Below are positions 5,869 to 26,607 of a stretch of DNA of 64,000 nt, in pieces (positions within the stretch are counted from its first letter, which is position 1; each line of letters opens with the position of its first letter). The position numbers were made by a program, and so were the translations under genes. Below the pieces are notes generated by a model that ran no database searches, had not been told where the DNA came from, and worked only from the letters and a program-made list of their open reading frames with translations. The DNA is taken from assembly GCA_041666045.1 (NCBI GenBank), contig JBAYHR010000001.1:187391-251390 (forward strand), written 5' to 3'. The stretch is from Minisyncoccota bacterium (GTDB lineage Bacteria > Patescibacteriota > Minisyncoccia > Phycocordibacterales > UBA9973).

Positions 5869-5907
5869 AATGTATATATTATAAACTAATTATTATTTTT
5901 GTAAATG

Positions 5908-5994
5908 CGGAGATGGGAGGATTTGAACCTCCGATTGAGTTTCCCCAATGCTGGTTTTCGAAACCAGTGCCTTCAACCACTCAGCCACATCTCC
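5908..5994 (-). tRNA. tRNA-Ser (anticodon CGA)
   Basis: Reverse complement folds as: acceptor ggagatg/catctcc, anticodon stem ctggt/accag with loop ttCGAaa, long variable arm, T-arm ggagg-ttcaaat-cctcc. 87 nt, CCA not encoded. Confidence 0.8.
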
Positions 5995-6080
5995 TTTTAT
6001 TAATTTAAATCTAACATTTTTTGCCATTTTTCCAAAAATAATATAGTATATTAATTGTTATCTTCATTTTTAATAAATAT

Positions 6081-6152
6081 GGCCCTATCGTCTAACGGTT
6101 AGGACATCGGCTTTTCAAGCCGGTAATCCGGGTTCGATTCCCGGTAGGGTCA
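6081..6152 (+). tRNA. tRNA-Glu (anticodon TTC)
   Basis: Acceptor ggcccta/tagggtc, anticodon stem tcggc/gccgg with loop ttTTCaa, T-arm ccggg-ttcgatt-cccgg. 72 nt. Confidence 0.8.
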
Positions 6153-11515: not shown

Positions 11516-11640
11516 CCATTTTTACTATTATATAAAGATAAAGAATTTTAAAAAGGTAACCACTATTTCTAAAAATAATTTAGAAAATTAATGCCTACCC
11601 TCTCACTTTCCTACCTCGTTCATGCCTCCCTTCCCGCATA

Positions 11641-11689
11641 GCAAGATTGCGTATGGACTGTCAACAATGACAGCCATACGCAATCTTGC
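11641..11689. repeat. 49-bp near-perfect palindrome (22-bp arms, 4-nt loop) in intergenic region
   Basis: gcaagattgcgtatggactgtca-acaa-tgacagccatacgcaatcttgc, one bulged base. No T-run follows, so it is not a canonical terminator. Confidence 0.6.
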
Positions 11690-11818
11690 GGTGGACTCTG
11701 TCCCCCGTGCCCCCAGCAAAAACAGTTTCAATCGTAAATTGAAACTGATAAAAATAAATTTAATTTATAAGAATGCACTACCCGAAATTAAATTAACTAA
11801 ATTAAACTTGCAACAACT

Positions 11819-13252
11819 TTAATGCGAAATAATTAACTTCTGAAACATTTGCTTTTCTTTTGTTTGCACTTCAATAATATACATGCCTTGCGGTAATTGT
11901 GAAGTGTTAACTTTTACTTTATTTGCTGAATAATTTTGTTGTTTTAATAATTTACCTTCTATTGTATAAAGCTCTACTTCTTTAATAATTTGCTCATTCT
12001 CTGTTGTTATTTCAAATGAAGTGTTGGCGGGGTTAGGATAAATACTTAAATTACTTTCATTTATTATTTCGGGAATGCTATTACTTTGACTACAGGTATC
12101 AATATAAGAGCCACCAATCCATTTGGCAATTCGCAGAATACTATCACCATCAATAGTCCAAAAGCCACCACTTACATATAAAGTATCCTTATCCCATCCA
12201 ATTGCAGTTATTCTATTATCGAAATTACCGCCTAACCCGCACCATTTTGAACCATCCCATTTTGCAATATATTTTGCTGGAACACCTCCTGCATAACTGA
12301 ATATACCACCAATGTAAAGCTCACCATTATGAATTTTCATATCGTGAATTTGCCCATTATCTGATATGGAACCCGACAAACCAAGAGTACCACCTCCAAC
12401 ATCTTTCCATTGGGTTCCGTTCCACCGCTGAATAAAATTACCGACATTGCCGTCCTGAAGGTAAAATGCACCTGAAATATAAAGTTCGTCTTTATAAACC
12501 ACCATATCCTCAAGACCTGACATTCCACCGTGCATACCACCACCAACATTAACCCATGATGAACCATTAAATTTTATAATATCTGAAATAGTATCATTAT
12601 CAAAATTGCCACCAATATATAATTCATCATTATAATTCGCTATAGCTAAAACGTAATTAATGTCAGGGGTAGTCCACAGCATAGGGAAACTATTTACATC
12701 ACTCCAATTACTTCCATTCCATTTAGCAAGACTGTTAACATGAATAGTTCCAGCAGAATCAAATGTGCCACCAACATATAATTCATTGTTGATTTCTTTA
12801 AAACAATAAATAGAACCATTCACACCAGTACCAACAGTATCCCATGTTATACCGTTCCATTTAGCTATATGACGAAATTTACCAAATAAATATATGTTAT
12901 AACCACCAACATATATTTCGTTATTGTATTTTGTAATAGCAGTTACTGTAGCCCCCATATTAAGTCCAAGTGACAAAAAATTATTTCCATCCCATTTAGC
13001 AATACCACGAATATTATCAACCCCTAACAAATAAAAATATCCTCCGATATACATCTCATTTTCAATGGTGTCTTCATATATACAATTCGCACCCTCCCTA
13101 ATTCCGCCAATACCCTGCCAATTTTGTGCATTAGTAACTACAGGACTTATTATAAGCCAGAGTATAAAAAAGCGGACTAACATATTATTTGTCCTACACC
13201 AAATTCTTTGTTGGAGAGAACTCCAACAAAGAATTAAAAAACGGGTTAACAT
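11819..13252 (-). CDS. Secreted beta-propeller-like repeat protein with T9SS-type C-terminal sorting domain
   Basis: Repeated IAKWNG-x-W...LYVGG-F blades. C-terminal LSIYPNPANTSFEI...VELYTIEGKLL...QGMYIIEV matches the Por_Secre_tail pattern. Likely true start is MLVRFFILW (signal peptide) at 13183. Confidence 0.7.
   Translation of the reverse strand: MLTRFLILCWSSLQQRIWCRTNNMLVRFFILWLIISPVVTNAQNWQGIGGIREGANCIYEDTIENEMYIGGYFYLLGVDNIRGIAKWDGNNFLSLGLNMGATVTAITKYNNEIYVGGYNIYLFGKFRHIAKWNGITWDTVGTGVNGSIYCFKEINNELYVGGTFDSAGTIHVNSLAKWNGSNWSDVNSFPMLWTTPDINYVLAIANYNDELYIGGNFDNDTISDIIKFNGSSWVNVGGGMHGGMSGLEDMVVYKDELYISGAFYLQDGNVGNFIQRWNGTQWKDVGGGTLGLSGSISDNGQIHDMKIHNGELYIGGIFSYAGGVPAKYIAKWDGSKWCGLGGNFDNRITAIGWDKDTLYVSGGFWTIDGDSILRIAKWIGGSYIDTCSQSNSIPEIINESNLSIYPNPANTSFEITTENEQIIKEVELYTIEGKLLKQQNYSANKVKVNTSQLPQGMYIIEVQTKEKQMFQKLIISH
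13202..13235. repeat. 15-bp perfect inverted repeat (aattctttgttggag / ctccaacaaagaatt) flanked by direct repeats aacatattattt
   Basis: Read directly. Lies at the junction between the 1276-aa and 477-aa T9SS-type genes. Confidence 0.55.
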
Positions 13253-13253
13253 A

Positions 13254-16200
13254 TTATTTTTGTTTTATTATTTTACCCATGTGATTTTTACCTGAAATAT
13301 TTACAACTACAAAATAAATTCCATCTGAATAATCAGTTAAATTAATAGTTTTATTAAATGAACCTGCTAAATTATTAGAATTATTTTCGAATAATTTTTG
13401 TCCCATTGAATTATACACTGAAATTGTTATATTTTCTTTTTCTTTAAATTCTGCTTTTAGAGTATAAATTCCATTGCTTGGATTTGGATAAATAATAAAC
13501 GGTATTTTTGAATTAATAGTATTTTCTTCGATACCATATAAAATTGAATTTAAATCGAAACGTGCAATAAAACCATCGCTGAAATTACTGCTTGCATTTT
13601 CCCACTGTATCCATGCACCATTACCAAGATCAACAATAGGGAAAGCAGGCGTAACATAGTGCATACTACTAGTTCCTCCAACTAAATAAAGTCTATTATT
13701 GCTTGAAACAGTGCAAGCGTTTCCAAAATCATTTTCAGAACCTCCGAAATAAGTAGCCCAAATACGTTCATTATCACTAAAAGTGAATCCTAAAATATAG
13801 GCATCGCTTATATTAGAAGAATTAGCTATAGTATCCTGATTATATGCTCCGCTTAAAGATAAAGTATCTAATCCTCTTGTAGAACCTACTACAAAAAAAT
13901 AATCATATTTCATTGCAATAATATCATTTCCTGTATTAAAATCAGTATTTCCATAATATGTTGACCATAATCTATTTCCATTGTTACTGAATCTTGAAAT
14001 AAAAGTATTACTTGTACCATTAAGGGTAGTATCGCAATACGCAGGTGAACCGGGATTGTACCAAGGAAAATTTGTACTGCTTGTATTTCCTGTTATTAAT
14101 AAATTTCCACTGCCGGAAATATTTAACGCAATACCATTTTCATCACCACTTCCACCAAAATATGTTGACCAAACAATGGCATCAGAAGAGTTAAATTTTG
14201 CTATAAAAGCATCTGAAGTACCACTAATAGCATTATCAAAATAAGCACCGCTACCCGGATTAGTAACATTCATATCGTTACTTGAAACAGTACCTGTTAT
14301 AAAAACATTATCAGAATTATCTGTTTTAACGCTTGTTATCTCGTTTCCACTACTAGTCCCGGTATTAAAGAATGTTGCCCAAAGCCGTGCACCTTGCTTA
14401 GTAAACTTTGTTATTAGTCCGTCTCCTTTTGTACTATTATAATATGCACCCGGTAATGAATCTAAAGGAGTATTATTAACACTTCCTACACCAACAATAT
14501 ACAAATTATTGTTATTATCGCCAGTTATACTGCAAAAGAGGGAAGAACTATAATAAGTGTTCCAAATTATATTATTTCCGTTCGGATTCAATTCTAATAT
14601 AAAAGACCCTCCAGATGTACTGTCAACATAAGCACCAGATGGTTGTGAATTAACAGGTTGAATTGGAAAATCAGTACTACTTGCTTCTCCAACAACATAT
14701 ATATTTCCAGTAGTATTATCGGGGAAAATAGAGTATCCTACATCAAAACTTGTTCCGCCATAATATGTTACAAATTTTCGATGACCAGTATTATCGAATT
14801 TAAGAATTGTTGCATCTACATCGCCATGAAAATAATTACTTGATAAACCATTATATGGCGGAAAATTATTACTTGAAGTAAAACCTGTAATATAAGAATA
14901 TTGATTATCATTGTCGGTTTCTATGTCATGAAATCCATCGGGTACACTACCACCATAATATGTACTCCAGTCGAGATTGCCAATTTGTTGCTGTTGCTGT
15001 GTATGTCCCAAGTCAACCTGAATTATTAAAGCCTTAGCTGTATTATATGAACCAATATTAAATTGGTAATAATTATATGTGCTGTCTGTTTGCCAGTCGG
15101 CTGTCCAGCCAGTAATGGTATCGACTGTATTGTCGGTTTCCAACTGGTAAACTGTTGGTCTTTCATAAGTAATACTGCCAATGGAGCTATTTATTGTTAA
15201 TTCATTTGTAGTACCATCTAAATTAAATGAACTTGCACCGTCGTATTCCATCATAATGTCCGTAGGGTCTCCGCCCGGTTTAACAATAAAATAGTATTTT
15301 ATTCCGTTTTGGTTACTGCTGTACATTAAGTCAATGTTTGGATATAGTTCGGTAGTAACTAACTTTTTGTTACCACGTATTTCAGTAACTCCATCGGAGC
15401 AATGTGCTAAAAAGTAATTCATATATTCAGTAGTTTCTTCTAAAGGGTATGTTTTTGCATTTGTATTACATTTTGAAAATGCAACATCTATACGGTGTAA
15501 TGTATCTGTTGTGCTTATAATAGTATCAACATGTGCAAAAACAAAACTGTTACTATTTTTTCTAATATAAAATTCGGGAGAAGAATTTTTAGCATAATAT
15601 TTAATATCTGGTACAAGGTTAGTGTCTGTATCTATTATTTGTCCACTATTTTTGTAATATGAAAAACTATTTAGTGGGTCTTCACCATTGTAATCGGTAG
15701 GTGTAATAATATCTTTTTCAACATATTTTATAGTATAATATTCAAATTCACCAGGTGCAGTTTCACTTTCGCCTGTTACAACAATATCTTGATTGTTATC
15801 AATTGTAATATTTGTAACTTTATCGTTCAAATGATTTTCACCATCATTATGGATTGTCCAAATTACATTACCACTGGCATCGTATTTCATTGTATAATAA
15901 TCTGTACTGTCAATTTGCGTAAAAAAATAACCTGAGACATAAATATTTCCTGATGTGTCTATTGCCATAGCATAAGCTTCATCATCACCATCTAATGAAT
16001 CGTTAAATGTTTCGACCCATTGTTGAGTTCCACTGCTGTTATATTTTATTGTGGTAATATTTTTACCTTCTGTTGAAGAAGTTGTATAACCAGTAACATA
16101 GACATTACCAGAAGCATCAACTTTAATTCCTTTAGCAATATCATCAAGATTACTTCCACTATTATAGGTATTTTCCCAAGCTAAAGAAAGTGTTGAAGTA

Positions 16201-17084
16201 AGTTTTATTATATCGTAATTGTAACCTTGTCCGGAAACAGGTGTTGCTCCAACAATGTAAATATTACCTGATGCATCTTCAACCATATCGTTTACCTGAT
16301 CTATCCCTGTTGAACTATTCGAGCTTATAGAACCGAATCCCCAAGCACCTGTAGATTTATTAAAACTTTTACTGCACCATTTATAAGTTGTTGTGCCTGT
16401 TTGAAGTATGCCTGATACAGTTCCATTAGTACTACCAATGCTGATTTTAACTCCGGCATCGTTCAAGTTTGAAGAATGATTGTAACGACTTGCCCATTGC
16501 TGGGTTCCACTGCTGTTATATTTGATTGCCATTAAGTCAGTATTTGGAGTTGCATTATAACTGCTTCCGGTTATATAAACATCCCCGTTTGAATCAACTA
16601 CAATTTCTGCTCCTGAATCATAACTGCCTCCAGTTCCATTATAAGTTGACAGCCATTGCTGTGTACCGCTACTGTTGTATTTAATAGTGATAATATCGGC
16701 ATCGGTTGATGATGTAGTTACTGTTCCAGTAACATAGACATTTCCACTGCCATCAACATATAAACCTGCGCCAATATCCTGTCCGTTTGCACCACCGTTA
16801 TATTGTTGAATCCATTGCAATACTCCTGATGAATTATATTTGGCAGTAAGAATATCATAATTATTATTTCCGTTCATTGTTGCTCCTACTATATACACAT
16901 TGTTGCTACCATCGGTTTTGGTAACATTTTTATAAAAGAAGTTCTGCGAACCGTCTGTACTTGACCAGTCGGCGAATACTTTTAATTCGCTTTGCGAAAA
17001 AACTGTTTGAACAAAAGCCATAAGGCTTAAAAAGAAGCAAAATGCAATGCTTACTTTGATAGATTTTGTAATTGTTGTTTTCAT
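13254..17084 (-). CDS. Giant secreted SBBP beta-propeller-repeat protein with T9SS-type C-terminal sorting domain
   Basis: Signal peptide; many SBBP-like repeats (YN-SG-QW...Y-G---D-G-GL-VD-SGNVYVTG); C-terminal IYPNPSNGIYTLKAEF...ISVYNSMGQKLF...DGIYFVVV matches the Por_Secre_tail pattern. Confidence 0.75.
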   Translation of the reverse strand: MKTTITKSIKVSIAFCFFLSLMAFVQTVFSQSELKVFADWSSTDGSQNFFYKNVTKTDGSNNVYIVGATMNGNNNYDILTAKYNSSGVLQWIQQYNGGANGQDIGAGLYVDGSGNVYVTGTVTTSSTDADIITIKYNSSGTQQWLSTYNGTGGSYDSGAEIVVDSNGDVYITGSSYNATPNTDLMAIKYNSSGTQQWASRYNHSSNLNDAGVKISIGSTNGTVSGILQTGTTTYKWCSKSFNKSTGAWGFGSISSNSSTGIDQVNDMVEDASGNIYIVGATPVSGQGYNYDIIKLTSTLSLAWENTYNSGSNLDDIAKGIKVDASGNVYVTGYTTSSTEGKNITTIKYNSSGTQQWVETFNDSLDGDDEAYAMAIDTSGNIYVSGYFFTQIDSTDYYTMKYDASGNVIWTIHNDGENHLNDKVTNITIDNNQDIVVTGESETAPGEFEYYTIKYVEKDIITPTDYNGEDPLNSFSYYKNSGQIIDTDTNLVPDIKYYAKNSSPEFYIRKNSNSFVFAHVDTIISTTDTLHRIDVAFSKCNTNAKTYPLEETTEYMNYFLAHCSDGVTEIRGNKKLVTTELYPNIDLMYSSNQNGIKYYFIVKPGGDPTDIMMEYDGASSFNLDGTTNELTINSSIGSITYERPTVYQLETDNTVDTITGWTADWQTDSTYNYYQFNIGSYNTAKALIIQVDLGHTQQQQQIGNLDWSTYYGGSVPDGFHDIETDNDNQYSYITGFTSSNNFPPYNGLSSNYFHGDVDATILKFDNTGHRKFVTYYGGTSFDVGYSIFPDNTTGNIYVVGEASSTDFPIQPVNSQPSGAYVDSTSGGSFILELNPNGNNIIWNTYYSSSLFCSITGDNNNNLYIVGVGSVNNTPLDSLPGAYYNSTKGDGLITKFTKQGARLWATFFNTGTSSGNEITSVKTDNSDNVFITGTVSSNDMNVTNPGSGAYFDNAISGTSDAFIAKFNSSDAIVWSTYFGGSGDENGIALNISGSGNLLITGNTSSTNFPWYNPGSPAYCDTTLNGTSNTFISRFSNNGNRLWSTYYGNTDFNTGNDIIAMKYDYFFVVGSTRGLDTLSLSGAYNQDTIANSSNISDAYILGFTFSDNERIWATYFGGSENDFGNACTVSSNNRLYLVGGTSSMHYVTPAFPIVDLGNGAWIQWENASSNFSDGFIARFDLNSILYGIEENTINSKIPFIIYPNPSNGIYTLKAEFKEKENITISVYNSMGQKLFENNSNNLAGSFNKTINLTDYSDGIYFVVVNISGKNHMGKIIKQK

Positions 17085-17735
17085 AATTGATAATTTTTAG
17101 TTAATATAAGTTTAAAAAAAATTCAAAATTCCTTTTATGGCTTATAGTAGCGGAAATGATTAAAAGTTACCCAACAATTAAATTTTATTTTTTAAAACCT
17201 TTAAAATTTTACAAAAAAAAGGGCATGGGACATAACTGTATTCATACTGAGGCTCTCGCGAAGCCCACGTCACAAATAAGTATGCCCACGCCTTTGGCGT
17301 GAGCGTTATACTTATTATTCTAATGACGTTATAAATTTGCGAGATTCCAGTAAGAGAATAACAATAAACGCTACCAATATTTTTTAAAGAACGCATGTTA
17401 ACATTTTCATGTTTACTAAACAAAGTTACAATACTTTTATTATAATGACAAAATATTTAAAATATTTTGTTTTAAACCTAATTTTAACTTAAAAAAGGTA
17501 AAATTATCACTACTTTATAAATTCCATTAAAAAAGAGTTTGAAATTTTAAAAGGTAACCACTTTAATTCAAAGTTTATTTTATTTATATAACGTTTAAAG
17601 GGTTAAAAGTAATTCACATTCTCTTCAAATTGTCATCTGACAAGGCTTTTAGAAGGACGATAATAAATCATAAATCAGGGTGCAGAAAAGGTGTTTAATT
17701 AGGTGCAGAAATTTTTCCTTGATTTTTTCAATTTG

Positions 17736-17767
17736 CATAAAAAGAAAAGAGAGGCAACTGCCTCTCT
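17736..17767 (-). terminator. Intrinsic terminator (minus strand) immediately downstream of the tRNA-like element
   Basis: Perfect 8-bp stem agagaggc-aact-gcctctct followed on the minus strand by tttctttttat. Confidence 0.5.
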
Positions 17768-17774
17768 TTCAAGT

Positions 17775-17830
17775 ACCCCGGACCGGAATCGAACCGGTAC
17801 AGCCTTTGGGGCCACAGGATTTTAAGTCCT
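17775..17830 (-). ncRNA. tRNA-like element: 3' portion only (anticodon-like stem-loop cttaaaa, long variable region, canonical T-arm accgg-ttcgatt-ccggt, 3' acceptor-like ccgggg)
   Basis: Minus-strand reading aggacttaaaatcct...ggccccaaaggctgtaccggttcgattccggtccgggg. The T-loop is canonical, but no matching D-arm or 5' acceptor strand could be found upstream. Either a degenerate tRNA(Leu-TAA-like), a tRNA 3' fragment from an old integration, or an unusual ncRNA. Confidence 0.3.
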
Positions 17831-18125
17831 TTTGTATTTATTAATATAAATACGATACAGCCCATTGTTTCTATGTTTAGCGCAAAACGATACACCTCAT
17901 AAGGTGCAGTAGCAAGGTGCGGAAAATCTTATTTTCCACTCATTTTTTTAATTAATATTTCTAGTGTTTCTATACTAAGTTTGATATCATTTTTATATGA
18001 ATAAAGTTTCGTAAGCCAAATTGATAGGTCACCATTTCGTGCTAGCACGAGAAGTATACTAGAAGCCTTCCATTTTAGTGGCTTTTTATATGTTTAAGAA
18101 AACTTAAAAATGCTAGAATACAACT

Positions 18126-18890
18126 ATGACAGAAGAAATAAATATTCTTTTAAAGTTTAACAAGGAACTACATGATCTTGTAGATACTAAACTACAGCTT
18201 GATATTACTGATGGTGATAACAAGGCTTTTTTCACTGCGTTCGCAATGGGTAAAGCATTCAAGACAGATGAAGCCATTGGTCTTCTCTGCAGAAGCGGAT
18301 ATGGTGAGGATGCTTTTATGCTCGCTCGCACATTATTTGAATTAATGGTCACTACTGCTTATATTCTTCAAGATACTACTGAAGATCGTTTAACTCGGTA
18401 TGCAAATCACGACTGGGTTACCAGAAAACAAATGTATGACTATGTAGTTTCAAATGAATCCTTACTTGCTGGATTAAACAAAGAAATTAAATCTGGCAAC
18501 AGACCAGACACAGTTGCAGAAGTAGAAGCTGAATATAAAAAAGTGATGGATAAATACAAATACCAAAACGGTACTTGGTCTGACAAGAGTATCAAGGACA
18601 TGTCCGAATCAATCGAAAGACTCGATGCTTACAACACGGTTTACCGATTACAGTGTACTTTGGGTCATACAAACGCCAGAAGCATTAATGAATATGTGAA
18701 TGTTACCGAAGAAGGAACTATTTTAAATATCGGACCAAACTGGGATCTTGTAAAAAATACCTTAGTGATAACGTTTGACTGTTTCTTTCATATCACTCAA
18801 GAAGCAAATAGTAAGTTTGGATGGGGGCTAGAAGATACCTTAGAAGAAATATCGAAAAAATGGGCAGAAGAAGTTGGTAATTTAAAGTAA
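18126..18890 (+). CDS. Uncharacterised all-alpha protein, first gene of the DUF4238 operon; possible HEPN-like domain
   Basis: 254 aa. C-terminal region YRLQCTLGHTNARS fits an R-x6-H HEPN-type motif. Its stop is 4 nt before the next gene. Confidence 0.45.
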   Translation: MTEEINILLKFNKELHDLVDTKLQLDITDGDNKAFFTAFAMGKAFKTDEAIGLLCRSGYGEDAFMLARTLFELMVTTAYILQDTTEDRLTRYANHDWVTRKQMYDYVVSNESLLAGLNKEIKSGNRPDTVAEVEAEYKKVMDKYKYQNGTWSDKSIKDMSESIERLDAYNTVYRLQCTLGHTNARSINEYVNVTEEGTILNIGPNWDLVKNTLVITFDCFFHITQEANSKFGWGLEDTLEEISKKWAEEVGNLK

Positions 18891-18894
18891 AACA

Positions 18895-19863
18895 ATGACA
18901 AACAGTAAAAAACATCATCACTATATACCACAATTTTACATTAATGGATTTACTAATCACAAAGGTGAAGTTTTTGTTCTTGAACATTCAACAGGTAAGA
19001 TAAATAAGCAAAGTAAATACGGAACATTCCATAAATATAAATTTTATACAGTAGACTTTTCTAAACACAAAGAACGAGATCCCGAATCGGCTCAAAAAAT
19101 TAAAAAGGCTTTAGGTATAGAAAATGTAGACACAAGTAATGTAAAAAAATACCCCGATATGATAGAAGATTTGTTAGGTGATTCAGAGACTGTTTCTGCT
19201 CCTATAATTAAGAAGTTAATTGAGGGTAAACAAATCTCTTCGACAGAAAAAATTGAACTCTCGACTTTTATAGCACTAATGTACACAAAAACTCCATCCT
19301 TCCACAATTTTGCCTCTGAAATGGAAAAGCAAATGATGAACAAAAGTATAAAGAAACTATTTTTAGAAAAAGAAAAAGTAAAAGATCTTTATAATAAAAT
19401 GCTGGCAGAAGGCTATGAGGATAAAATTGATGTACAAGAACTTTTTAAACTTGTTGAAGAAGATAGATATAAAATTGAAATACCAAAAGAATTGACTATA
19501 CAAACGATGCTAATTGGAACAAGTGTTATAGATAGGATTTTGTATAACAAAACATGGTTGATAATGGAAGCACCTTCTACAACTAGTTTTATAACAAATG
19601 ATCAGCCGGTATTTATGAATCATCCCCTTGTGAATAAATATGGCCCATTTAGTGTTGGAGTTGGCACGTCAAAAGTAGAAATCATTTTTCCACTTTCTAA
19701 AGAGCTTTTATTGATTATGAAGGATACTCCAAAAGGAAATATGATTATGCATAAAAAAATTGATCGGACGAAAGTACGTGATTTAAATAAATTAATTTTT
19801 GCTCGCTCTGGCGATTATGTTATTGCTCGTGATTTTGCCTTAATAAAGAAATTAATGAAATAA
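18895..19863 (+). CDS. DUF4238-family protein (paralog 1)
   Basis: N-terminal HHHYIPQFYINGF matches the DUF4238 signature H-Y-h-P-Q-F-Y-L-x-x-F; internal SFITNDQPVF matches the family's SDNPV motif. 322 aa. Confidence 0.65.
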   Translation: MTNSKKHHHYIPQFYINGFTNHKGEVFVLEHSTGKINKQSKYGTFHKYKFYTVDFSKHKERDPESAQKIKKALGIENVDTSNVKKYPDMIEDLLGDSETVSAPIIKKLIEGKQISSTEKIELSTFIALMYTKTPSFHNFASEMEKQMMNKSIKKLFLEKEKVKDLYNKMLAEGYEDKIDVQELFKLVEEDRYKIEIPKELTIQTMLIGTSVIDRILYNKTWLIMEAPSTTSFITNDQPVFMNHPLVNKYGPFSVGVGTSKVEIIFPLSKELLLIMKDTPKGNMIMHKKIDRTKVRDLNKLIFARSGDYVIARDFALIKKLMK

Positions 19864-19865
19864 GT

Positions 19866-20939
19866 ATGAATACATTATTTTTAAAATTTAATATGTATAG
19901 AAACTATTCAGGTAAAAAATTCATGAATTATGTTTTTAGAAACCGTCTTGGTAAAACCATATGGACGACAAGATTGATTATTTTCATAATGAATATTCTA
20001 GACAGAAATCAGGTCTACGTAAATACTGGTGATGTAGATAATTTTGATCATTACGTACCACAATTATTACTTAACAGATGGAGAATCTCAGAAACAGGAG
20101 AAAACAAAAATAAAATATTCTTCTGGTCTAAAATAAATAAAACTATTAAACCTAAAAGTATTAAGAAGGTTGCAGGAGAAATAAATTGGGATACAAGTTC
20201 AGCTGATGGTAAACCAAGCGACTATATAAGTAAAAAACTATATGCGGAAGTTTTAGAACAAAAAGCTAGTTATATAATAAAATATGTAAATACTAATAAA
20301 ACCCCTGAATTAACTTTTTTAGAAGAATCTACTCTTTCAGTTTTTGTGGCTCATCAAATTATAAGAGTTCCTAATTTTAGAAAAACACTTAATAGATTTT
20401 TATCCTTGGGTTATTCTAAAGGGCTTATTTCAAAAGAAGAACTAGGAAGTAAAAAGGTATTAATAGAAAAAGTAGCAAAAAATACTATTAATATTACCTA
20501 CGATCAGTTAGATAAAGAAAAACCACTGTTTGTTTTAAAAGGAGCGAAACAACAAGAATCTCTTATATCGTTAGTTGTTGCAGATGATATAGCTGAAAAA
20601 ATTTACAGAACAAGGCATTTAAAATTTTTAGAAATATCTGAGGAATATGAAAATGAATTTGTTATTTCTGATAATCCGGTAGTTTTTCTAGATATGGGAA
20701 GAAAAACTATCTTAAATCATATACCATGGTGGGAGGTAGGAATAGAAAAATTTATAATCTTTATGCCAATTTCTCCTAAAAAAGCACTTCTATATTCACC
20801 AATAAAAGATGAACAGGATCTACCAATAAAAGAATTTATTGATTTATTAAATTTTGGACAATATACAAACTGTTCAGAAGGAGTATTTAGTAAAAAAGAA
20901 ACAATAATTCAAAAACATTTGAAATATTATGATTTGTAA
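19866..20939 (+). CDS. DUF4238-family protein (paralog 2, divergent)
   Basis: DHYVPQLLLNRW and FVISDNPVVFL motifs. Starts 3 nt after paralog 1's stop; an alternative start is ATG 19989 (MNILDRNQ). Confidence 0.6.
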   Translation: MNTLFLKFNMYRNYSGKKFMNYVFRNRLGKTIWTTRLIIFIMNILDRNQVYVNTGDVDNFDHYVPQLLLNRWRISETGENKNKIFFWSKINKTIKPKSIKKVAGEINWDTSSADGKPSDYISKKLYAEVLEQKASYIIKYVNTNKTPELTFLEESTLSVFVAHQIIRVPNFRKTLNRFLSLGYSKGLISKEELGSKKVLIEKVAKNTINITYDQLDKEKPLFVLKGAKQQESLISLVVADDIAEKIYRTRHLKFLEISEEYENEFVISDNPVVFLDMGRKTILNHIPWWEVGIEKFIIFMPISPKKALLYSPIKDEQDLPIKEFIDLLNFGQYTNCSEGVFSKKETIIQKHLKYYDL

Positions 20940-20985
20940 TATAGATTTATTTTGGTACAAAGAAAATTTTTAAAACTCTAAAAAG

Positions 20986-22800
20986 TTATTTACTTAACAA
21001 TTCAGTATTCCAAGAAGAAATTACTCCTTGTATATTTGCAACCCAGTCATCTGAATTATTATTATCATTTGTACTATTAGCAATTTTTTCAACCAATTCT
21101 TTTAAATAACTATGAGCAAAGTATTTTCCACCTTCTCTCATTACTCGTAGTGTTTTTAATAAACCAACAAATTGTGAAATTGTAATTGGGGCAATTTTTT
21201 GTCGACTACCTTTATAACCAATAGTATTTGCAATGTAAAAAGTTTCAGCACTATCAATATGGATTGATGGAGCAATGAATATACAATACGAATCATCATT
21301 ATTTTTTTCAAAATCTCGTAAATGTCGCATAACTGGCTGGCCTTCATTAAACCATTGATCACGTCCATTCAACATTGTAACTTCACAAATCATATTAAAA
21401 TTACTGTAATAACATTCAATATCAGCCATTCCCCCAGGAGCAGTTGAAGTTGGTTCATTATCATCACCAACTGGATAATTAGGCTTAATTTCCTTTGCAT
21501 CATTTAATGCATGAAGTCCCATAGTTGAAAGATACTCTAATAACAAAGGACGATTTTCTGCATTATATATATTTTCTAATTGATCAATATATTGAGTAAT
21601 TGAATCAATTGGTTGTGATTTTCTGTGGTTATCTTTCTCCTGTAAATCTTTACGTATAATTCTTAATTCTTCAATATATGAATTCAATTTAGTTTCAGAC
21701 ATCACAGAAATATCTTTAATTTTTTGGACAACTAGACCAAGTGTACCTTGTAATATTTTTATTTCATCATAAACTTCTATTGCTATTTTACTTAACTTTT
21801 CTTTTGTTAACCAAGGTAAAATCGGTAAACTATCATTGGACATATAATTAAGATAAGCATCTCTATCAGTAAACTCCTTAGCTTTATAAAACTCATTCTC
21901 AAACAATGCTTCAATCTCTGTGTGACGATTTGGCTCTAAGTCAACATAAAATCCATTACCACGAATACGAATAAACTTTGTTAAACGAAAATATCTAATA
22001 GCATTATCGCCATAATCTTTCAAATTCGTTAGTAATTTATTGATTTTAGTTTTTTCTCTTGTATTTAAAAAATTAATAGCAAAATTTAAACGAAAATTAT
22101 CACGAATTTTTTTACGTTCTTGTTTATTTTTATTTTTTTGCAAATCTCGTAATTCAATAATTTTATTTGCATAATTTTCAATATCAGTATATTTAACTAA
22201 TGAAGGAACAAAAAATGAAAATTCTCTTTTACTTAATCCGACTGGATTATTACCACGACTTGTTTCAAGTTCATTAACTTTACTTATTAATTTAAGCATT
22301 GCTACAAAAGGTACGACATTATAATCACCATTATTACTAAAATCATCATTGGCAGGATTTGGTATCTGCCATTTTATAAATGATTTTAGAAAAACATCAC
22401 CGGCATCTTTTTCACTCGCAATGAGTTTTTTGCCAAGATCGGTAATTTTGACTATCCCATTATCAATAAAAGCAAATCCAAACTTTGTAAGTGGATTAAT
22501 TGACTGACGACCTCTCATTGAAAAATCTTTATAATTTTTAATTTCAATAATACGATCGACGATTTGATCACTAATTTCATTATCAACATTATTAATTAGG
22601 TCAATAATTTCTCTTGGTAAGCGATTGTAAAACTGTTGGTTTCCAAAACCATACAATCTATCTTTAATTAAAATTTTTTGATATTTTTCTTGATTATCAT
22701 TATTCCATTCCTGATTTTCAAGTAACTGTAAAGAAATCAAAAAACTTCTTAATCTTTCAGGGTTTCTAACAGTTGTTGTAATTGACCATGCCTTTAACAT
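20986..22800 (-). CDS. Putative Type IIS restriction endonuclease (FokI/AlwI-family-like)
   Basis: 604 aa, directly downstream of and co-oriented with a fused double m6A MTase, as for FokI (~587 aa). Candidate acidic nuclease cluster GGMADIECYY...ICEVTML. No sequence-level confirmation was possible. Confidence 0.5.
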   Translation of the reverse strand: MLKAWSITTTVRNPERLRSFLISLQLLENQEWNNDNQEKYQKILIKDRLYGFGNQQFYNRLPREIIDLINNVDNEISDQIVDRIIEIKNYKDFSMRGRQSINPLTKFGFAFIDNGIVKITDLGKKLIASEKDAGDVFLKSFIKWQIPNPANDDFSNNGDYNVVPFVAMLKLISKVNELETSRGNNPVGLSKREFSFFVPSLVKYTDIENYANKIIELRDLQKNKNKQERKKIRDNFRLNFAINFLNTREKTKINKLLTNLKDYGDNAIRYFRLTKFIRIRGNGFYVDLEPNRHTEIEALFENEFYKAKEFTDRDAYLNYMSNDSLPILPWLTKEKLSKIAIEVYDEIKILQGTLGLVVQKIKDISVMSETKLNSYIEELRIIRKDLQEKDNHRKSQPIDSITQYIDQLENIYNAENRPLLLEYLSTMGLHALNDAKEIKPNYPVGDDNEPTSTAPGGMADIECYYSNFNMICEVTMLNGRDQWFNEGQPVMRHLRDFEKNNDDSYCIFIAPSIHIDSAETFYIANTIGYKGSRQKIAPITISQFVGLLKTLRVMREGGKYFAHSYLKELVEKIANSTNDNNNSDDWVANIQGVISSWNTELLSK

Positions 22801-22820
22801 GGTCTAATTATACCATAAAA

Positions 22821-24827
22821 TCAATAATTCGTAATCAGAACTTCTATTGTTATATTGTTTTTTGCAGTAGAATGATAATTTGAATTTTTATAATTATAAT
22901 TTAATTTATTAATTTTGAAATTATTTTTTTTAACCCAATTTTTCATTATTTCATTGGTTTTACCCTTATGCTCCAAAACATTTGATAGAGCAAAGCGAAC
23001 TCCCTTTTTATTTAAGCGTGTAAGCAAAGAATATAAATCTTTTTCATCTTGTTCAGTCCAACCACCCAATTCATTATAACTTGCTAGCCCCAATAAATAA
23101 GGTGGGTCTAAATAAACAAAATCATCTTTTTGTAAATTTTCTTTTTCTATTTCTCTAAAGTCTTGAGTTTTGAAAACTATCTTTTTTTCATTAGAAATTT
23201 GATTAAAGCTTGCAACATTTTTTCTTAAACTACCATTATAATCTCGCTTGCCGACCGGTAAATTAAAGCCTCCATTACTATTAAAACGAATTTGATTATT
23301 GAATGAGTAAAGAATCAACACTAACAATAGATCTATTCTCGTTTTGTTTTTATTAAATTCATTACGTAATTTCAAAAAAGAATTCTTATTATATTGCCCA
23401 AGCCCCACAGAACTATCGGCATTATAGTGAGAATACCCTTTGATATAACTTTGACTTAATTCAAATTTATCAATTATATTGATAATTCCTTGATTTAAAT
23501 CTTCAAAATTATTATTCTGAATTAGTTTTAATAAATTAACAACGTATCTATTTTTTTCTAAACAAACAATATTTTTAGCTGTAGCATTAATACCAACATT
23601 TGCACCACCAGAAAATACGTCATAAAATACATTTATTTCGTTTGGAAATAATTTTACGATTTGTGGTAATAATTTATGTTTTCCACCAGTATAATTAAGA
23701 GGAGATTTTACAAAGCCGTTTTGAACAGGATTGTTTTTTGAAGCAATAACTAATTTTTGAGTTCTTTTTGCAACATTAACTTTACAAAGAAAAATCCTCT
23801 CTTTTAAATTGTCCTTGCTAGATTTTCCAGTTGTAAATTGTTTAAAATCAGTTTCAAAAATACGAACATCTCCTTTTCTTTTTAACGCCGATAAAATTTC
23901 ATGGTCACTAATTCGCGATTGAGATCGTGCATTTCCTGATGTTCCCATATCATTATATGAAACTAAAATATATTTTGCATTAATATTATCTATCAAATCA
24001 CAAAAAGCAACACCGGCTGATTTCATATTGTATTTGCTTTTAATATGAGAACGATCAATTTTTTTTGCAACTCCAAAAACCTTTTCTTTTTTCCATGTAG
24101 CTACATTTTCAAGTAAATGATATGCGTCAGAGTATTGACGAGAGTTGTATGGTGGATCAATATAAACAATATCAGCTTTTATCTTTTTTACCAATTCGTT
24201 GGCGTCACTTTTATAAATTTCTGCGGAATATTTAGAATTTTTTATATCAAGTGGAAGTAAAAATAGTTTTTTATCGGGGATATCAATTTTTCTATAAGCA
24301 TCATAGTGTCCAACAGTATTAGCGATTTTATCAAAAGCATAGATTAAAGAAGTTAATAAATATGATTTTTCTCGTTTTGTAATTATTTTTTTTTCAAACA
24401 ATTTTTCAATATCATCCCTAATTACTCCTATTTTTTTTGAATTAGTTGTATTAAAATAGGTATTAGAAAAATTATTTGAAAAATAATTATTGCTATATTT
24501 TTTTAAATCAAGTTTATTGTAAAAATTTAATCGTTCTTTAAGTTTATCTTCTCTTATTATATCTCTACCGAAAAATGCATTATAGATATAATTATTTGAA
24601 TCGAGAATATCATTAACGATTATTTTTGAACGACTATGGAAATGATTTGCAACCGTACCAGTACCAGCAAAGATATCAGCAAATGATTCAAATTGTATGT
24701 TTTCAGTTTCTAAAATATTATCAATAAAACTAAGTAACTTAGTTTTTGAGCCAAGATAACGTCTTTGATTAATAGAAATTATTTTATTTCCAAAGTATGC
24801 ATCGTTCATATATAAATAGTATATCAC
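22821..24827 (-). CDS. Fused tandem N6-adenine DNA methyltransferase (two D12/Dam-class domains, M.FokI-like; Type IIS modification enzyme)
   Basis: Domain 1 has RRYLGSKTKLL, FAGTGTV and VYIDPPYNS. Domain 2 has NYTGGKHKLL, FSGGANVG and VYLDPPYLL. 668 aa. Confidence 0.85.
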   Translation of the reverse strand: MIYYLYMNDAYFGNKIISINQRRYLGSKTKLLSFIDNILETENIQFESFADIFAGTGTVANHFHSRSKIIVNDILDSNNYIYNAFFGRDIIREDKLKERLNFYNKLDLKKYSNNYFSNNFSNTYFNTTNSKKIGVIRDDIEKLFEKKIITKREKSYLLTSLIYAFDKIANTVGHYDAYRKIDIPDKKLFLLPLDIKNSKYSAEIYKSDANELVKKIKADIVYIDPPYNSRQYSDAYHLLENVATWKKEKVFGVAKKIDRSHIKSKYNMKSAGVAFCDLIDNINAKYILVSYNDMGTSGNARSQSRISDHEILSALKRKGDVRIFETDFKQFTTGKSSKDNLKERIFLCKVNVAKRTQKLVIASKNNPVQNGFVKSPLNYTGGKHKLLPQIVKLFPNEINVFYDVFSGGANVGINATAKNIVCLEKNRYVVNLLKLIQNNNFEDLNQGIINIIDKFELSQSYIKGYSHYNADSSVGLGQYNKNSFLKLRNEFNKNKTRIDLLLVLILYSFNNQIRFNSNGGFNLPVGKRDYNGSLRKNVASFNQISNEKKIVFKTQDFREIEKENLQKDDFVYLDPPYLLGLASYNELGGWTEQDEKDLYSLLTRLNKKGVRFALSNVLEHKGKTNEIMKNWVKKNNFKINKLNYNYKNSNYHSTAKNNITIEVLITNY

Positions 24828-24994
24828 ATTATATTAAAAGCAATAAATAAATACTGTTTTAATTTAAAAAAAGTATCAAATGATTTATAAAAATAACATT
24901 ATAAATTGTTTAAGAAATTAAATTTTTATAATCAAATTCTTTTAAAACAATAATTAAAATAAAATATATACAGGTATTTTTTATATATTTTTAA

Positions 24995-25030
24995 TAAAAA
25001 AACGCCGATCAAAAATCAGCGTTTTTTGTA
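24995..25030 (-). terminator. Intrinsic terminator after the 161-aa membrane protein gene (bidirectional A/T runs)
   Basis: Imperfect hairpin cgccgat-caaaa-atcagcg flanked by an A-run and a T-run. Confidence 0.45.
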
Positions 25031-25033
25031 AAT

Positions 25034-25519
25034 TTATTTTTCTAAATCTTTTATTTCTTTATCCAGCTCTTTATTGTATTTTTTACTATCTTTAAAGAAA
25101 ATAAAAAGAGCATACATAAGACAAATTATGCCTAAACTAGAAAAAATATAAAAAATAAAATCATTGTCTATATAAAAACCATAGACAATAAATCCTAATA
25201 GGATTAATGCAACACCTAACCAAATAAAGAATAAAATTCTTTTCTCTTCTTTTATAAAAGAAAAATACTCTAAATACATTAATTTAATTTTTTTAATATA
25301 TTTATTTTCATAAATCTCTAACATCAGACAAAGAAAATAAAATAAAAAAAACATTCCTATTGTGCCCATAAATACCATAATAACAGTATTTATAATACTT
25401 TTTTCAAAGCAATTTGCCACTATGGCAATTACTAAAAAAAATATACCAAGAAAAAAACTTACTGCAATCTTCTGCTCTTTTCTTTTTAATTCAGATTCAA
25501 CTTTTACAATGTCTATCAT
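25034..25519 (-). CDS. Hypothetical 4-TM membrane protein
   Basis: 161 aa with four hydrophobic helices. Paired with the upstream 65-aa ORF, 11-nt gap. Confidence 0.45.
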   Translation of the reverse strand: MIDIVKVESELKRKEQKIAVSFFLGIFFLVIAIVANCFEKSIINTVIMVFMGTIGMFFLFYFLCLMLEIYENKYIKKIKLMYLEYFSFIKEEKRILFFIWLGVALILLGFIVYGFYIDNDFIFYIFSSLGIICLMYALFIFFKDSKKYNKELDKEIKDLEK

Positions 25520-25530
25520 AATAATTAGAT

Positions 25531-25728
25531 TTAAGGGGTTTTTATTTTTGATCTTTTCTCTTCAATTATAGTTTTTTTTGTTTTTTCATTTATAATAAAA
25601 TTATATTTTTTTTTGATATTCTCAGGTATATACATTTTATTAAATGCTGCTTTTCTTGCTTCAAATAAAACATCTTCAATTGAATTTAATGGTTCAACTT
25701 CTATTGGTTTAATTTTTTTATTTTTCAT
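25531..25728 (-). CDS. Hypothetical small soluble protein, partner of the 4-TM protein
   Basis: 65-aa, Lys-rich ORF. Confidence 0.35.
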   Translation of the reverse strand: MKNKKIKPIEVEPLNSIEDVLFEARKAAFNKMYIPENIKKKYNFIINEKTKKTIIEEKRSKIKTP

Positions 25729-25854
25729 ATATATTTAATTTTTAAAAGTTTTTACACCGGACAAATTTAATAAAAGCATACCATATAAGTATTAAAAAGT
25801 AAATAGATAATTTACCCTTGAAAATATAGATTTTATTCGCTATAATCTTCAAAC

Positions 25855-26607
25855 ATGCAAAAAGATAGAAAAATTAAAATTGTCATTTTAGCAGCTGGAA
25901 AAGGAAAAAGAATGCAAAGTGATTTGCCAAAAGTTTTGGCACCTCTTAAAGGTAAACACATGATCAAGCACGTAATAGAATCTATCAAAGAAATTCATGA
26001 CGAAAAACCTTATGCAATAATCGGACACATGGCAGAATTAGTTCAAAAAGAACTTGGAGATTTATGTTTTTATGTATTACAAAAAGACCAACTTGGCACA
26101 GGTCATGCCGTTTCTTGCGCTAAAGGAGACTGCCAAGGAGCAGAAGACATCGTAGTTTTATCTGGTGATCAACCTTTCATAAAAGCTGAAACTATAAAAA
26201 ATTTAATTGAAAAACATTTAAATTCTGGAGCTAAAATAACTTTCACTACAACAATACTCCCAGACTTCTCTGATTGGAGAAAAGCATTTATTGCATTCGG
26301 AAGAATTTTAAGAAAAAATGGAGAAGTTGTAGGTATCCGTGAATATAAAGACGCTAGTGAAGAAGAAAGAAAAATAAAAGAAGTAAATGCTGGATGTTAT
26401 ATTTTTAATGCAGAGTGGCTTTGGAAAAATCTAGAAAAAATAAAAAATGAAAATATTCAAAAAGAATATTATTTAACAGATCTATTCCACATAGCTTCGG
26501 AAAATAATGAAAAAATAGAAACAATAACGATAGAACCTCACGAAGCCTTAGGAGCAAATACAAAAGAAGAATTAGAAATATTAGAAAACTTTCCTGTAAA
26601 AAAGTAA
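25855..26607 (+). CDS. Sugar-1-phosphate nucleotidyltransferase (GlmU N-terminal uridyltransferase domain only)
   Basis: IVILAAGKGKRMQSDLPKVL and LGTGHAV motifs. Only 250 aa, so there is no acetyltransferase LbH domain. Confidence 0.7.
   Translation: MQKDRKIKIVILAAGKGKRMQSDLPKVLAPLKGKHMIKHVIESIKEIHDEKPYAIIGHMAELVQKELGDLCFYVLQKDQLGTGHAVSCAKGDCQGAEDIVVLSGDQPFIKAETIKNLIEKHLNSGAKITFTTTILPDFSDWRKAFIAFGRILRKNGEVVGIREYKDASEEERKIKEVNAGCYIFNAEWLWKNLEKIKNENIQKEYYLTDLFHIASENNEKIETITIEPHEALGANTKEELEILENFPVKK

What the first reader, a model, noticed from the sequence alone, without database searches (positions are those of the whole stretch)
18126..20939. Three-gene candidate defence operon: alpha-helical Rx6H (HEPN-like) protein + two tandem divergent DUF4238 paralogs
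Two adjacent proteins carry the DUF4238 hallmarks: an N-terminal H-Y-[IV]-P-Q-[FL]-[YL] motif and an internal [IV]-[ST]-D-[NQ]-P-V motif. DUF4238 has been reported as a single-gene anti-phage system in P2/P4 hotspots. Here the arrangement differs: two divergent paralogs are tightly coupled (4-nt and 3-nt intergenic gaps), and a 254-aa all-alpha protein sits upstream. That protein's YRLQCTLGH segment fits the HEPN R-x(4-6)-H RNase motif. The operon is convergent with a Type IIS R-M system. It lies inside an accessory block flanked by a recombinase and tRNA sequences, which is the classic defence-island context. A HEPN-like + tandem DUF4238 architecture is not something I recognise as described.
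Basis: partly seen in the sequence, partly recalled or inferred. Interest (0 to 1): 0.8.

Follow-up and report, generated by a model that had tools for sequence, protein, structure and literature searches.

The report
DUF5677 plus two DUF4238 defence cassette
Three tightly packed genes in a candidate-phyla-radiation bacterium look like a composite anti-phage cassette: a DUF5677 protein (not a HEPN RNase) coupled to a relative of the known single-gene DUF4238 defence protein, with a second, divergent DUF4238 gene attached.

Summary
The three ORFs are real: 18126-18890, 18895-19863 and 19866-20939, with 4-nt and 2-nt gaps. Proteins 2 and 3 are both Pfam DUF4238. Protein 2 also matches the PADLOC model of the validated single-gene Rst_DUF4238 system; protein 3 does not.

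Protein 1 is Pfam DUF5677, the domain reported in DitA of the Aditi defence system. The HEPN reading fails. R174 of the 'Rx6H' is Arg in only 35 of 133 family representatives. The pattern is expected by chance in 34% of shuffles. No HEPN profile matches, and fold searches return only generic helical bundles.

The trio is a composite.
- DUF5677 + w2-type DUF4238 is a conserved, usually overlapping pair. It occurs in six further distinct Patescibacteria loci, beside a tRNA gene and/or a large serine recombinase.
- The w3-type DUF4238 occurs alone or with other partners.
- The full trio recurs only in one near-identical island.
- DUF5677 homologues are also coupled to other effector-like genes (AbiU2-HEPN, NERD-like).

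The most likely reading is a mobile-island defence cassette in which DUF5677 partners interchangeable effectors. It is a new variant of known kinds, of moderate interest, and the mechanism is still inferred.

The parts
18126..18890 (+). w1: 254-aa DUF5677 protein, first gene of the cassette. All-alpha. Family-wide conserved residues are R68, H181, W151, D62, K43, Y169 and Y173.
   Evidence: Pfam PF18928, 8.3e-28. AF2 model pLDDT 90.7. Conservation in 36 homologues and in 133 representatives at 50% clustering. No HEPN profile match. No PADLOC DitA hit; weak PDC-S52 hits in 14 of 36.
18895..19863 (+). w2: 322-aa DUF4238 protein of the Rst_DUF4238 / DUF4238-Pers type. It is the conserved downstream partner of w1.
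19866..20939 (+). w3: 357-aa DUF4238 protein of a separate subfamily. It has a conserved N-terminal extension of about 55 aa and is about 21% identical to w2.
   Evidence: Pfam PF14022, 2.3e-25. No PADLOC hit for it or for the 12 subfamily members in A3. It is 100% identical to a protein that NCBI names 'DUF4238 domain-containing protein [Candidatus Paceibacterota bacterium]'. The N-terminal extension is aligned across the subfamily. Kyte-Doolittle maximum is 1.04, so it is not a transmembrane helix. Homologues are solo or have other partners.
18023..18125 (+). Conserved 5' region of the cassette. It contains a tRNA 3'-end scar GATAGGTCACCA (18023-18034), the palindrome TCGTGCTAGCACGA (18037-18050), a hairpin with T-run (18064-18089), and an extended -10-like TGCTAGAAT (18111-18119) only 6 nt before the ATG.
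   Evidence: Alignment of upstream regions of W, L028, L007, L025, L026 and L027. Nucleotide homology to other loci starts at 18029-18041. The promoter and leaderless reading is my inference from the sequence; the consensus scan did not call it.
17774..17859 (-). Degenerate tRNA-like element, a likely attachment-site remnant. It is flanked by four (A/G)GGTGCRGWA repeats at 17678-17924.
   Evidence: Rfam tRNA clan match of 28.3 bits, below gathering. Not called by ARAGORN. The repeat has 3 exact matches against 0.14 expected.
20986..22800 (-). AlwI-family Type IIS or nicking-type restriction endonuclease, convergent with the cassette.
   Evidence: Pfam RE_AlwI, 4.1e-83. PADLOC REase_II, 1.5e-136. 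It is part of the same island in L028, which shares 88.9% nt identity over window 18029-23883.
22821..24827 (-). Fused two-domain N6-adenine (D12-class) methyltransferase of the R-M system.
   Evidence: Pfam MethyltransfD12 in two stretches, 1.8e-60. PADLOC MTase_II, 1.3e-177. NCBIfam dam, 1.1e-46.

Best explanation
This is a composite anti-phage cassette at the tRNA-proximal edge of an integrative island in a Candidatus Paceibacterota (Patescibacteria) genome.

The core is a conserved, translationally coupled two-gene module: a DUF5677 protein (w1) followed by an Rst_DUF4238-type protein (w2). A second DUF4238 protein of a different subfamily (w3) has been joined on by cassette exchange. The three genes are read from one promoter upstream of w1.

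Proposed working (inferred, not shown):
- The DUF4238 proteins are the active anti-phage components, as the single E. coli DUF4238 gene is against T7.
- DUF5677 is a partner module, acting as regulator or sensor-adaptor. In related loci it is coupled to alternative effector-like genes (AbiU2-HEPN fusion, NERD-like, DUF4238). In other relatives it is fused to DNA- or metal-binding N-termini (HTH_17, SEC-C).
- DUF5677 is not itself a HEPN RNase.

The adjacent AlwI-like R-M system is a separate defence module of the same island.
For: Operon packing: gaps of 4 and 2 nt, and no + strand terminator.

The DUF5677 + w2-type DUF4238 pair recurs in L021, L022, L030/L057, L056 and L067, with 11-17 nt overlaps, and in L028. 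In those loci w1 identity is 52-88% and w2 identity is 55-92%. A diverged HTH-DUF5677 + DUF4238 pair occurs in L036. Pairwise identities of the two partners correlate across the 8 loci (r = 0.92). Three more pairs are suggested by equal contig lengths and sources.

Location: a tRNA gene lies directly upstream in L007, L025, L026, L021, L056 and L053. A convergent large serine recombinase, with terminase and methyltransferase genes beyond it, lies directly downstream in L021, L022, L056 and L067.

Cassette exchange: nucleotide homology to L007 and L025 breaks exactly at the w1 stop (18889) and the w3 ATG (19866). In those loci a 569-aa NERD-like gene and a 223-aa gene replace w2.

DUF5677 is nearly always tightly coupled to a neighbouring gene, and some partners recur:
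- the L002 281-aa partner is 60% identical to the N-terminal half of the L013 510-aa partner, whose C-terminal half is HEPN_AbiU2;
- the NERD-like 569- and 606-aa proteins of L007 and L054 are related.

Literature:
- A single DUF4238 gene protects against T7 (PMC9122126).
- A DUF4238 domain occurs in a validated E. coli TIR system (PMC11350192).
- DUF5677 maps onto Aditi DitA, and the related DUF6988 was newly validated in defence (PMC13092281).
- DUF5677 is enriched next to serine recombinases (bioRxiv 10.1101/2025.10.07.681051).
Against: - Each gene also occurs without the others. DUF5677 homologues at 72-74% identity lack any DUF4238 (L001, L009). w2-type genes are solo in L058 (65%) and L023 (46%). 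w3-type genes are solo or have a 223-aa partner.
- The full trio is seen only in the window and in the near-identical L028.
- The correlation of partner identities is what any two genes on one mobile element would show.
- The one DUF5677 ORF tested experimentally was not among the protective ORFs.
- No biochemical function is known for either family, and no fold neighbour was found. The division of labour is therefore inference.
- All evidence is from metagenome-assembled CPR genomes. Nothing was found in the phage, plasmid or IMG/VR collections.
Confidence: 0.55

Rival explanations
1. Three independent single-gene defence (or defence-candidate) genes are simply packed next to each other in a defence island. 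DUF5677, w2 and w3 each act alone, and the tight spacing reflects genome compaction in a small CPR genome.
For: Each family is found alone or with different neighbours. Rst_DUF4238 works as a single gene in E. coli. The middle gene is swapped cleanly between conserved flanks. The neighbours of DUF5677 are a mix of typical defence-island genes.
Against: The start/stop overlap of DUF5677 and the w2-type gene is preserved down to 52% and 55% identity, in five diverged loci that overlap plus the window itself (4-nt gap). DUF5677 is translationally coupled to a neighbour in most loci. The w2-type subfamily has DUF5677 upstream in most resolvable cases.
Confidence: 0.28
2. One reading: protein 1 is a HEPN-type RNase with an R-x6-H active site that works with two DUF4238 proteins.
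Against: - R174 is Arg in 35 of 133 representatives (Lys 29, Trp 14) and is Ser in some close homologues.
- The pattern occurs by chance in 34% of shuffles.
- No HEPN Pfam family matches any of 36 members at E up to 1.
- Foldseek finds nothing at E below 0.2.
- The invariant Arg (R68) is 113 residues from H181, on a different helix.
Confidence: 0.04
3. A toxin-antitoxin or addiction module stabilises the integrative element. DUF4238 would be the toxin and the upstream DUF5677 its antitoxin or autoregulator.
For: The upstream-gene-first order, overlapping genes and swappable downstream partner are typical of TA modules. Some DUF5677 relatives carry an N-terminal HTH_17, and three show weak AbiEi-antitoxin HTH matches. 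The module sits at element ends beside the recombinase.
Against: w2-type and E. coli DUF4238 genes exist and function without DUF5677. w1 itself has no DNA-binding domain. The invariant polar residues of DUF5677 look like a pocket or active site rather than a simple binder. No TA family match was found in Pfam, NCBIfam or PADLOC.
Confidence: 0.1

Closest known systems
Rst_DUF4238 / DUF4238-Pers (single-gene anti-phage system from the E. coli P2 hotspot; Rousset et al. 2022, PMC9122126)
   Same: w2 matches both Pfam DUF4238 and the PADLOC DUF4238-Pers model. Like the E. coli gene, it sits in a variable cargo position of a mobile element.
   Different: Here the gene is the downstream, overlapping partner of a DUF5677 gene and is followed by a second DUF4238 paralog. 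w3 lies outside the PADLOC model and carries a conserved N-terminal extension of about 55 aa. The host is Patescibacteria, not Enterobacteria. No phage assay exists.
Aditi (DitA + DitB; Millman et al. 2022), whose DitA carries a C-terminal DUF5677 domain according to the DefensePredictor supplement (PMC13092281)
   Same: w1 is a DUF5677-domain protein in a two-gene or multi-gene defence-island operon.
   Different: w1 and its 35 aligned homologues do not match the PADLOC DitA model. w1 is the bare domain (254 aa), whereas in DitA the domain occupies residues 276-427. The partner is DUF4238, not DitB. The mechanism of Aditi is itself unknown.
HEPN-domain abortive-infection nucleases (e.g. AbiU2, AbiV)
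   Same: These are all-alpha helical-bundle proteins in defence islands. A genuine HEPN_AbiU2 domain is the coupled partner of a DUF5677 homologue in L013.
   Different: w1 lacks a conserved Rx4-6H and matches no HEPN profile. Its fold similarity is not specific.
AlwI/Nt.BstNBI-type Type IIS R-M systems
   Same: The convergent neighbour has an RE_AlwI endonuclease and a two-domain D12 methyltransferase, as expected for asymmetric sites.
   Different: It is a separate module of the island. There is no evidence that it works together with the three-gene cassette.

Membership tests
Pfam DUF4238 (PF14022) | Full-length match above the gathering score (27 bits) | tested here: met
   w2 scores 127.3 bits over profile positions 2-279 of 281. 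w3 scores 90 bits over positions 3-280 of 281.
Rst_DUF4238 / DUF4238-Pers defence system | Match to the system's own HMM (PADLOC PDLC03000) | tested here: met
   w2 matches at 5.1e-20, 70 bits, and so do all 24 w2-type sequences in A3. w3 and the 12 w3-type sequences do not match, so this row holds for w2 only.
Rst_DUF4238 / DUF4238-Pers defence system | Single-gene system that is sufficient on its own | tested here: not met
   In the window and in six further distinct loci the gene is coupled to an upstream DUF5677 gene, usually by overlap. Solo w2-type genes do exist elsewhere (L058, L023).
Rst_DUF4238 / DUF4238-Pers defence system | Protection against phage (T7 in the original report) | not testable with these tools
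   This needs cloning and plaque assays.
Pfam DUF5677 (PF18928) | Match above the gathering score (27.1 bits) | tested here: met
   w1 scores 98 bits over profile positions 8-164 of 166. All 36 aligned homologues match.
HEPN superfamily | Conserved R-x(4-6)-H catalytic motif | tested here: not met
   R174 is Arg in 35 of 133 representatives, while H181 is present in 132 of 133. It is R, K or S in close homologues. The pattern appears in 34% of shuffles.
HEPN superfamily | Sequence-profile match to any HEPN family | tested here: not met
   No HEPN Pfam family appears at E up to 1 in w1 or in any of 36 homologues.
HEPN superfamily | Four-helix HEPN core fold | tested here: inconclusive
Aditi (DitA/DitB) | Match to the DitA and DitB models, in a two-gene ditA-ditB arrangement | tested here: not met
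   No DitA or DitB hit in PADLOC for w1, w2, w3 or the 36 w1 homologues. Only the Pfam domain is shared, according to the PMC13092281 supplement.
Type IIS R-M (AlwI family) | RE_AlwI endonuclease plus cognate, double adenine methyltransferase | tested here: met
   RE_AlwI at 4.1e-83. MethyltransfD12 in two stretches at 1.8e-60. PADLOC REase_II and MTase_II both match.

The most novel reading that the evidence does not exclude
DUF5677 is a general adaptor or sensor module that plugs into interchangeable effectors: Rst_DUF4238-type proteins, AbiU2-HEPN fusions and NERD-like nucleases. If so, the window shows one member of a previously undescribed modular, multi-effector defence family that is common on integrative elements of Patescibacteria. 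It would mechanistically link two orphan systems, Aditi (DitA) and Rst_DUF4238. The conserved R68, H181, D62 and K43 would form a ligand-binding or catalytic site that controls the partner.
Probability: 0.3. Interest if true: 0.65.

Novelty: new variant of a known kind. Interest (0 to 1): 0.45.

Why it matters
Rst_DUF4238 and Aditi are validated anti-phage systems with no known mechanism. A 2024 survey lists both among systems that could not be assigned to any known domain family.

A conserved, translationally coupled pairing of their signature domains gives a concrete handle. So does the recurrent coupling of DUF5677 to other effector-like genes. It suggests testing DUF5677 as a shared regulatory or sensing partner and DUF4238 as an effector slot.

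It also adds to the sparse picture of phage defence and integrative elements in the uncultured, small-genome Patescibacteria.

The value is that of a well-defined lead, not of a new principle. No function has been shown.

Tried and rejected
- **HEPN reading of w1.** Rejected on motif conservation, chance expectation, profile searches and fold searches.
- **Hidden DUF4238 among other partners.** I tested whether the un-annotated downstream partners of other DUF5677 genes are cryptic DUF4238 proteins. A local HMM search with --max found nothing better than E 0.016.
- **L002 and L013 partners as DUF5677 paralogs.** hhalign gave a probability of 0.3, so this was rejected. DUF5677 and DUF4238 profiles are also unrelated to each other.
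- **Transmembrane anchor in the w3 N-terminal extension.** The Kyte-Doolittle maximum is 1.04, so this was rejected.
- **Solved relatives by sequence.** None found for either family.
- **Other collections.** tblastn of w1 against plasmids and phages found no match. IMG/VR scans with both alignments found no relatives.
- **AFDB50 fold search.** The library was not available.
- **PADLOC on ten partner proteins.** No hits.
- **Literature searches.** 'PF14022' and 'Aditi/DitA/DitB' returned only unrelated papers.
- **First structure job for w2.** It was re-run with alignment A3.
Full report
**1. What is in the sequence**

The w1 stop and the w2 ATG are separated by 4 nt. The w2 stop and the w3 ATG are separated by 2 nt, not 3. 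No terminator-like site lies on the + strand within the cluster. w3 ends 46 nt from the stop codon of a convergent gene.

w3 is 100% identical to a database protein that NCBI names 'DUF4238 domain-containing protein [Candidatus Paceibacterota bacterium]'. Virtually all homologues of the three proteins come from Patescibacteria (CPR) metagenome-assembled genomes. The window is therefore from a CPR genome.

**2. Family assignments**

w2 and w3 both pass the Pfam DUF4238 threshold over the whole profile, at 127 and 90 bits against a cut-off of 27. They share only about 21% identity.

They belong to different subfamilies. w2 and all 23 of its aligned homologues match the PADLOC model DUF4238-Pers, the model of the validated single-gene system. 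w3 and its 11 aligned homologues do not. The w3 subfamily carries a conserved N-terminal extension of about 55 residues. This extension is not hydrophobic enough to be a membrane helix.

Residues shared by both subfamilies are H9, E98, R132, P134, F136, F232, D236, P238, P266, S268 and N298, in w2 numbering.

w1 is Pfam DUF5677, at 98 bits against a cut-off of 27.1.

The convergent genes are an AlwI-family endonuclease (20986-22800) and a fused double D12 adenine methyltransferase (22821-24827). Together they form a Type IIS-like R-M system.

**3. The HEPN claim**

R174-x6-H181 is present in w1, but the evidence goes against a HEPN assignment.
- The pattern R-x(4-6)-H occurs at least once in 34% of shuffles of w1. 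It also occurs a second time in the real protein, at R88.
- In 36 homologues, R174 is R, K or S.
- In 133 representatives of the wider family, found by an exhaustive profile search, R174 is Arg in 35, Lys in 29 and Trp in 14. That search gave 2,717 clusters at E up to 1e-3.
- The nearly invariant positions are R68 (132 of 133), H181 (132), W151 (131), D62, K43, Y169 and Y173.
- The invariant Arg and His lie 113 residues apart, on different helices of the model.
- No HEPN Pfam family matches w1 or any of the 36 homologues at E up to 1. The recurring weak match is DUF6988, in 20 of 36.
- Foldseek against the PDB finds nothing at E below 0.2, and a profile search of PDB sequences finds nothing.

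I conclude that membership of HEPN is not supported. The fold criterion alone is inconclusive.

**4. What is known about the two families**

- A single DUF4238 gene from the P2 hotspot protects E. coli against T7, by an unknown mechanism (PMC9122126).
- A DUF4238 domain also occurs in one of the validated E. coli TIR systems (PMC11350192).
- The DefensePredictor supplement maps DUF5677 onto DitA of the Aditi system (residues 276-427, HHpred probability 99). It also lists E. coli DUF5677 and DUF4238 proteins as predicted defence genes. The same paper reports the related DUF6988 as newly validated in defence (PMC13092281).
- DUF5677 is enriched next to serine recombinases in Bacillota, although the one ORF tested was not among the protective ones (bioRxiv 10.1101/2025.10.07.681051).
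- A 2024 survey lists Aditi and Rst_DUF4238 among systems that cannot be assigned to a known domain family.
- w1 and its homologues do not match the PADLOC DitA model. 14 of 36 weakly match the unvalidated candidate PDC-S52.
- I found no paper that describes DUF5677 and DUF4238 together as a system.

**5. Gene neighbourhoods**

I collected 67 loci around homologues. I scanned them with local HMMs built from the homologue sets.

(a) The same trio occurs only in L028. L028 is the same island, with 88.9% nucleotide identity over window 18029-23883, including the endonuclease.

(b) The pair DUF5677 + w2-type DUF4238 occurs in L021, L022, L030/L057, L056 and L067. The two genes overlap by 11-17 nt. 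Relative to the window, w1 identity is 52-66% and w2 identity is 55-62%. A diverged HTH-DUF5677 + DUF4238 pair occurs in L036. Pairwise identities of the two partners correlate (r = 0.92). This fits co-inheritance, but it is also what any two linked genes would show.

(c) In L007 and L025, DUF5677 (88% and 94% identity) is followed by a 569-aa NERD-like protein, a 223-aa protein and then a w3-type DUF4238 (77%). Nucleotide homology to the window stops exactly at the w1 stop (18889) and resumes exactly at the w3 ATG (19866). This is a clean cassette exchange of the middle gene or genes.

(d) The w3 type is also found with the 223-aa protein but without DUF5677 (L066). It is found alone next to an MmeI-like R-M enzyme in many Nomurabacteria contigs.

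(e) The w2 type is solo in L058 and L023.

(f) Many DUF5677 homologues, including ones at 72-74% identity, have no DUF4238 nearby, yet are still tightly coupled to another gene. Some of these partners recur:
- The L013 partner carries HEPN_AbiU2 (1.7e-17). Its N-terminal half is 60% identical to the L002 partner.
- The NERD-like partners of L007 and L054 are related.
- Other neighbours carry Schlafen/AlbA_2, pPIWI-associated nuclease or Mrr_cat domains.

None of the un-annotated partners is a cryptic DUF4238. Some DUF5677 relatives carry N-terminal HTH_17 or SEC-C motifs.

**6. Position on mobile elements**

In L021, L022, L056 and L067 the pair is followed directly by a convergent large serine recombinase (L021 has one intervening 510-aa ORF). 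In L022, L056 and L067, N6_N4 methyltransferase genes and an ORF with a weak terminase match lie beyond the recombinase.

A tRNA gene lies directly upstream, in the same orientation, in L007 and L025 (Glu), L026 (Ser), L021 and L056 (Gln) and L053 (Glu).

The region upstream of w1 is conserved among W, L028, L007, L025 and L026. In the window it contains:
- a 12-nt scar identical to a tRNA 3' end (18023-18034);
- a 14-nt palindrome (18037-18050);
- a hairpin with a T-run;
- a TGnTAGAAT extended -10-like element ending 6 nt before the ATG.

I read this as the cassette's own promoter with a leaderless or near-leaderless start. That is inference from the sequence.

A degenerate tRNA-like element (17774-17859, minus strand) lies 170 nt further upstream. 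It is flanked by repeats of (A/G)GGTGCRGWA. The window's own large serine recombinase (6092-7816) lies about 10 kb away next to tRNA-Ser and tRNA-Glu. It cannot be tied to this cassette.

**7. Interpretation**

Shown:
- the family memberships;
- the operon-like packing;
- the conserved DUF5677 + w2-type pair;
- the independent distribution of the w3 type;
- the location at tRNA and recombinase-proximal ends of integrative elements, next to R-M genes.

Inferred:
- The cassette is anti-phage. This rests on homology of w2 to a validated system, the literature links of DUF5677, and the context.
- DUF4238 proteins are the active components, and DUF5677 is a partner module used with interchangeable effectors.

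The main rival is that these are three independent defence-island genes. It keeps substantial weight because each gene also occurs without the others. A toxin-antitoxin reading is possible but weakly supported. The HEPN-RNase reading is essentially excluded.

**8. Structure of DUF4238**

**9. Verdict**

This is a new variant of known kinds: an Rst_DUF4238-type gene in a conserved two-gene arrangement with a DUF5677 (Aditi DitA-domain) protein, plus a second DUF4238 subfamily member, on a Patescibacteria integrative island. I could find no description of this arrangement.

Interest is moderate. It is a concrete lead into two orphan defence families, but there is no functional evidence, and the trio as such is a local composite.

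Noticed in passing
window 17678-17924: Four copies of (A/G)GGTGCRGWA (17678, 17701, 17902, 17915) flank a degenerate tRNA-like element (17774-17859, minus strand) and its terminator-like hairpin (17745-17770). There are 3 exact matches against 0.14 expected in the window, and none elsewhere in the 64 kb. They may be recombinase-binding or att-site remnants.
   Followed up: partly
window 18023-18125: The cassette leader is conserved in W, L028, L007, L025 and L026. It contains a tRNA 3'-end scar, the palindrome TCGTGCTAGCACGA, a hairpin with T-run, and an extended -10-like TGCTAGAAT only 6 nt from the ATG. This suggests a leaderless transcript and a possible operator.
   Followed up: partly
window 6080-7816: A large serine recombinase (574 aa, minus strand) has its 3' end overlapped by a predicted tRNA-Glu (6080-6156, +), next to tRNA-Ser (5907-5994, -). 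Homologues of this tRNA-Glu lie directly upstream of the DUF5677 cassette in L007, L025 and L053.
   Followed up: partly
window 8939-17084 (minus strand): Three large secreted-type proteins (858, 477 and 1276 aa) carry the Por_Secre_tail (T9SS-type C-terminal sorting) domain, along with CHAP, CARDB, beta-propeller and DUF7948 domains. This is unexpected in a Paceibacterota genome.
   Followed up: no
L060-L065, 1287-3950 (minus strand): An 882-887-aa MmeI-like Type IIG R-M enzyme carries an N-terminal LexA DNA-binding domain and an S24 peptidase domain. It is transcribed divergently from a solo w3-type DUF4238 in Nomurabacteria contigs.
   Followed up: no
L004-L006, L038, L047, L049: A recurrent three-gene cluster: an HTH_17-DUF5677 fusion (312 aa), a 228-aa protein and a 153-aa Mrr_cat-like protein, all overlapping by 4 nt. 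It sits next to NERD and HD-domain genes.
   Followed up: partly
L013 6695-8227; L002 6786-7631: The 510-aa partner of DUF5677 in L013 is a fusion. Its N-terminal domain is 60% identical to the 281-aa partner in L002, and its C-terminal domain is HEPN_AbiU2.
   Followed up: partly
L009 6803-7726; L011 6807-7913: Un-annotated downstream partners of DUF5677 contain R-x4-H-G strings (RHRLVHG, RSAYLHTG) that resemble HEPN motifs. No profile hit supports this.
   Followed up: no
L007 8474-9145; L025 2770-3480; L066 4321-4992: A 223-aa protein with no family match lies directly upstream of the w3-type DUF4238 in three loci (85% identity between L007 and L066). This suggests a second two-gene DUF4238 module.
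   Followed up: partly
L058 5001-9143 vs window 18895-26607: In a Pacebacteria MAG, a solo w2-type DUF4238 lies about 2.4 kb upstream of an NTP-transferase gene homologous to window 25855-26607. The region upstream of that gene may be a variable hotspot.
   Followed up: partly
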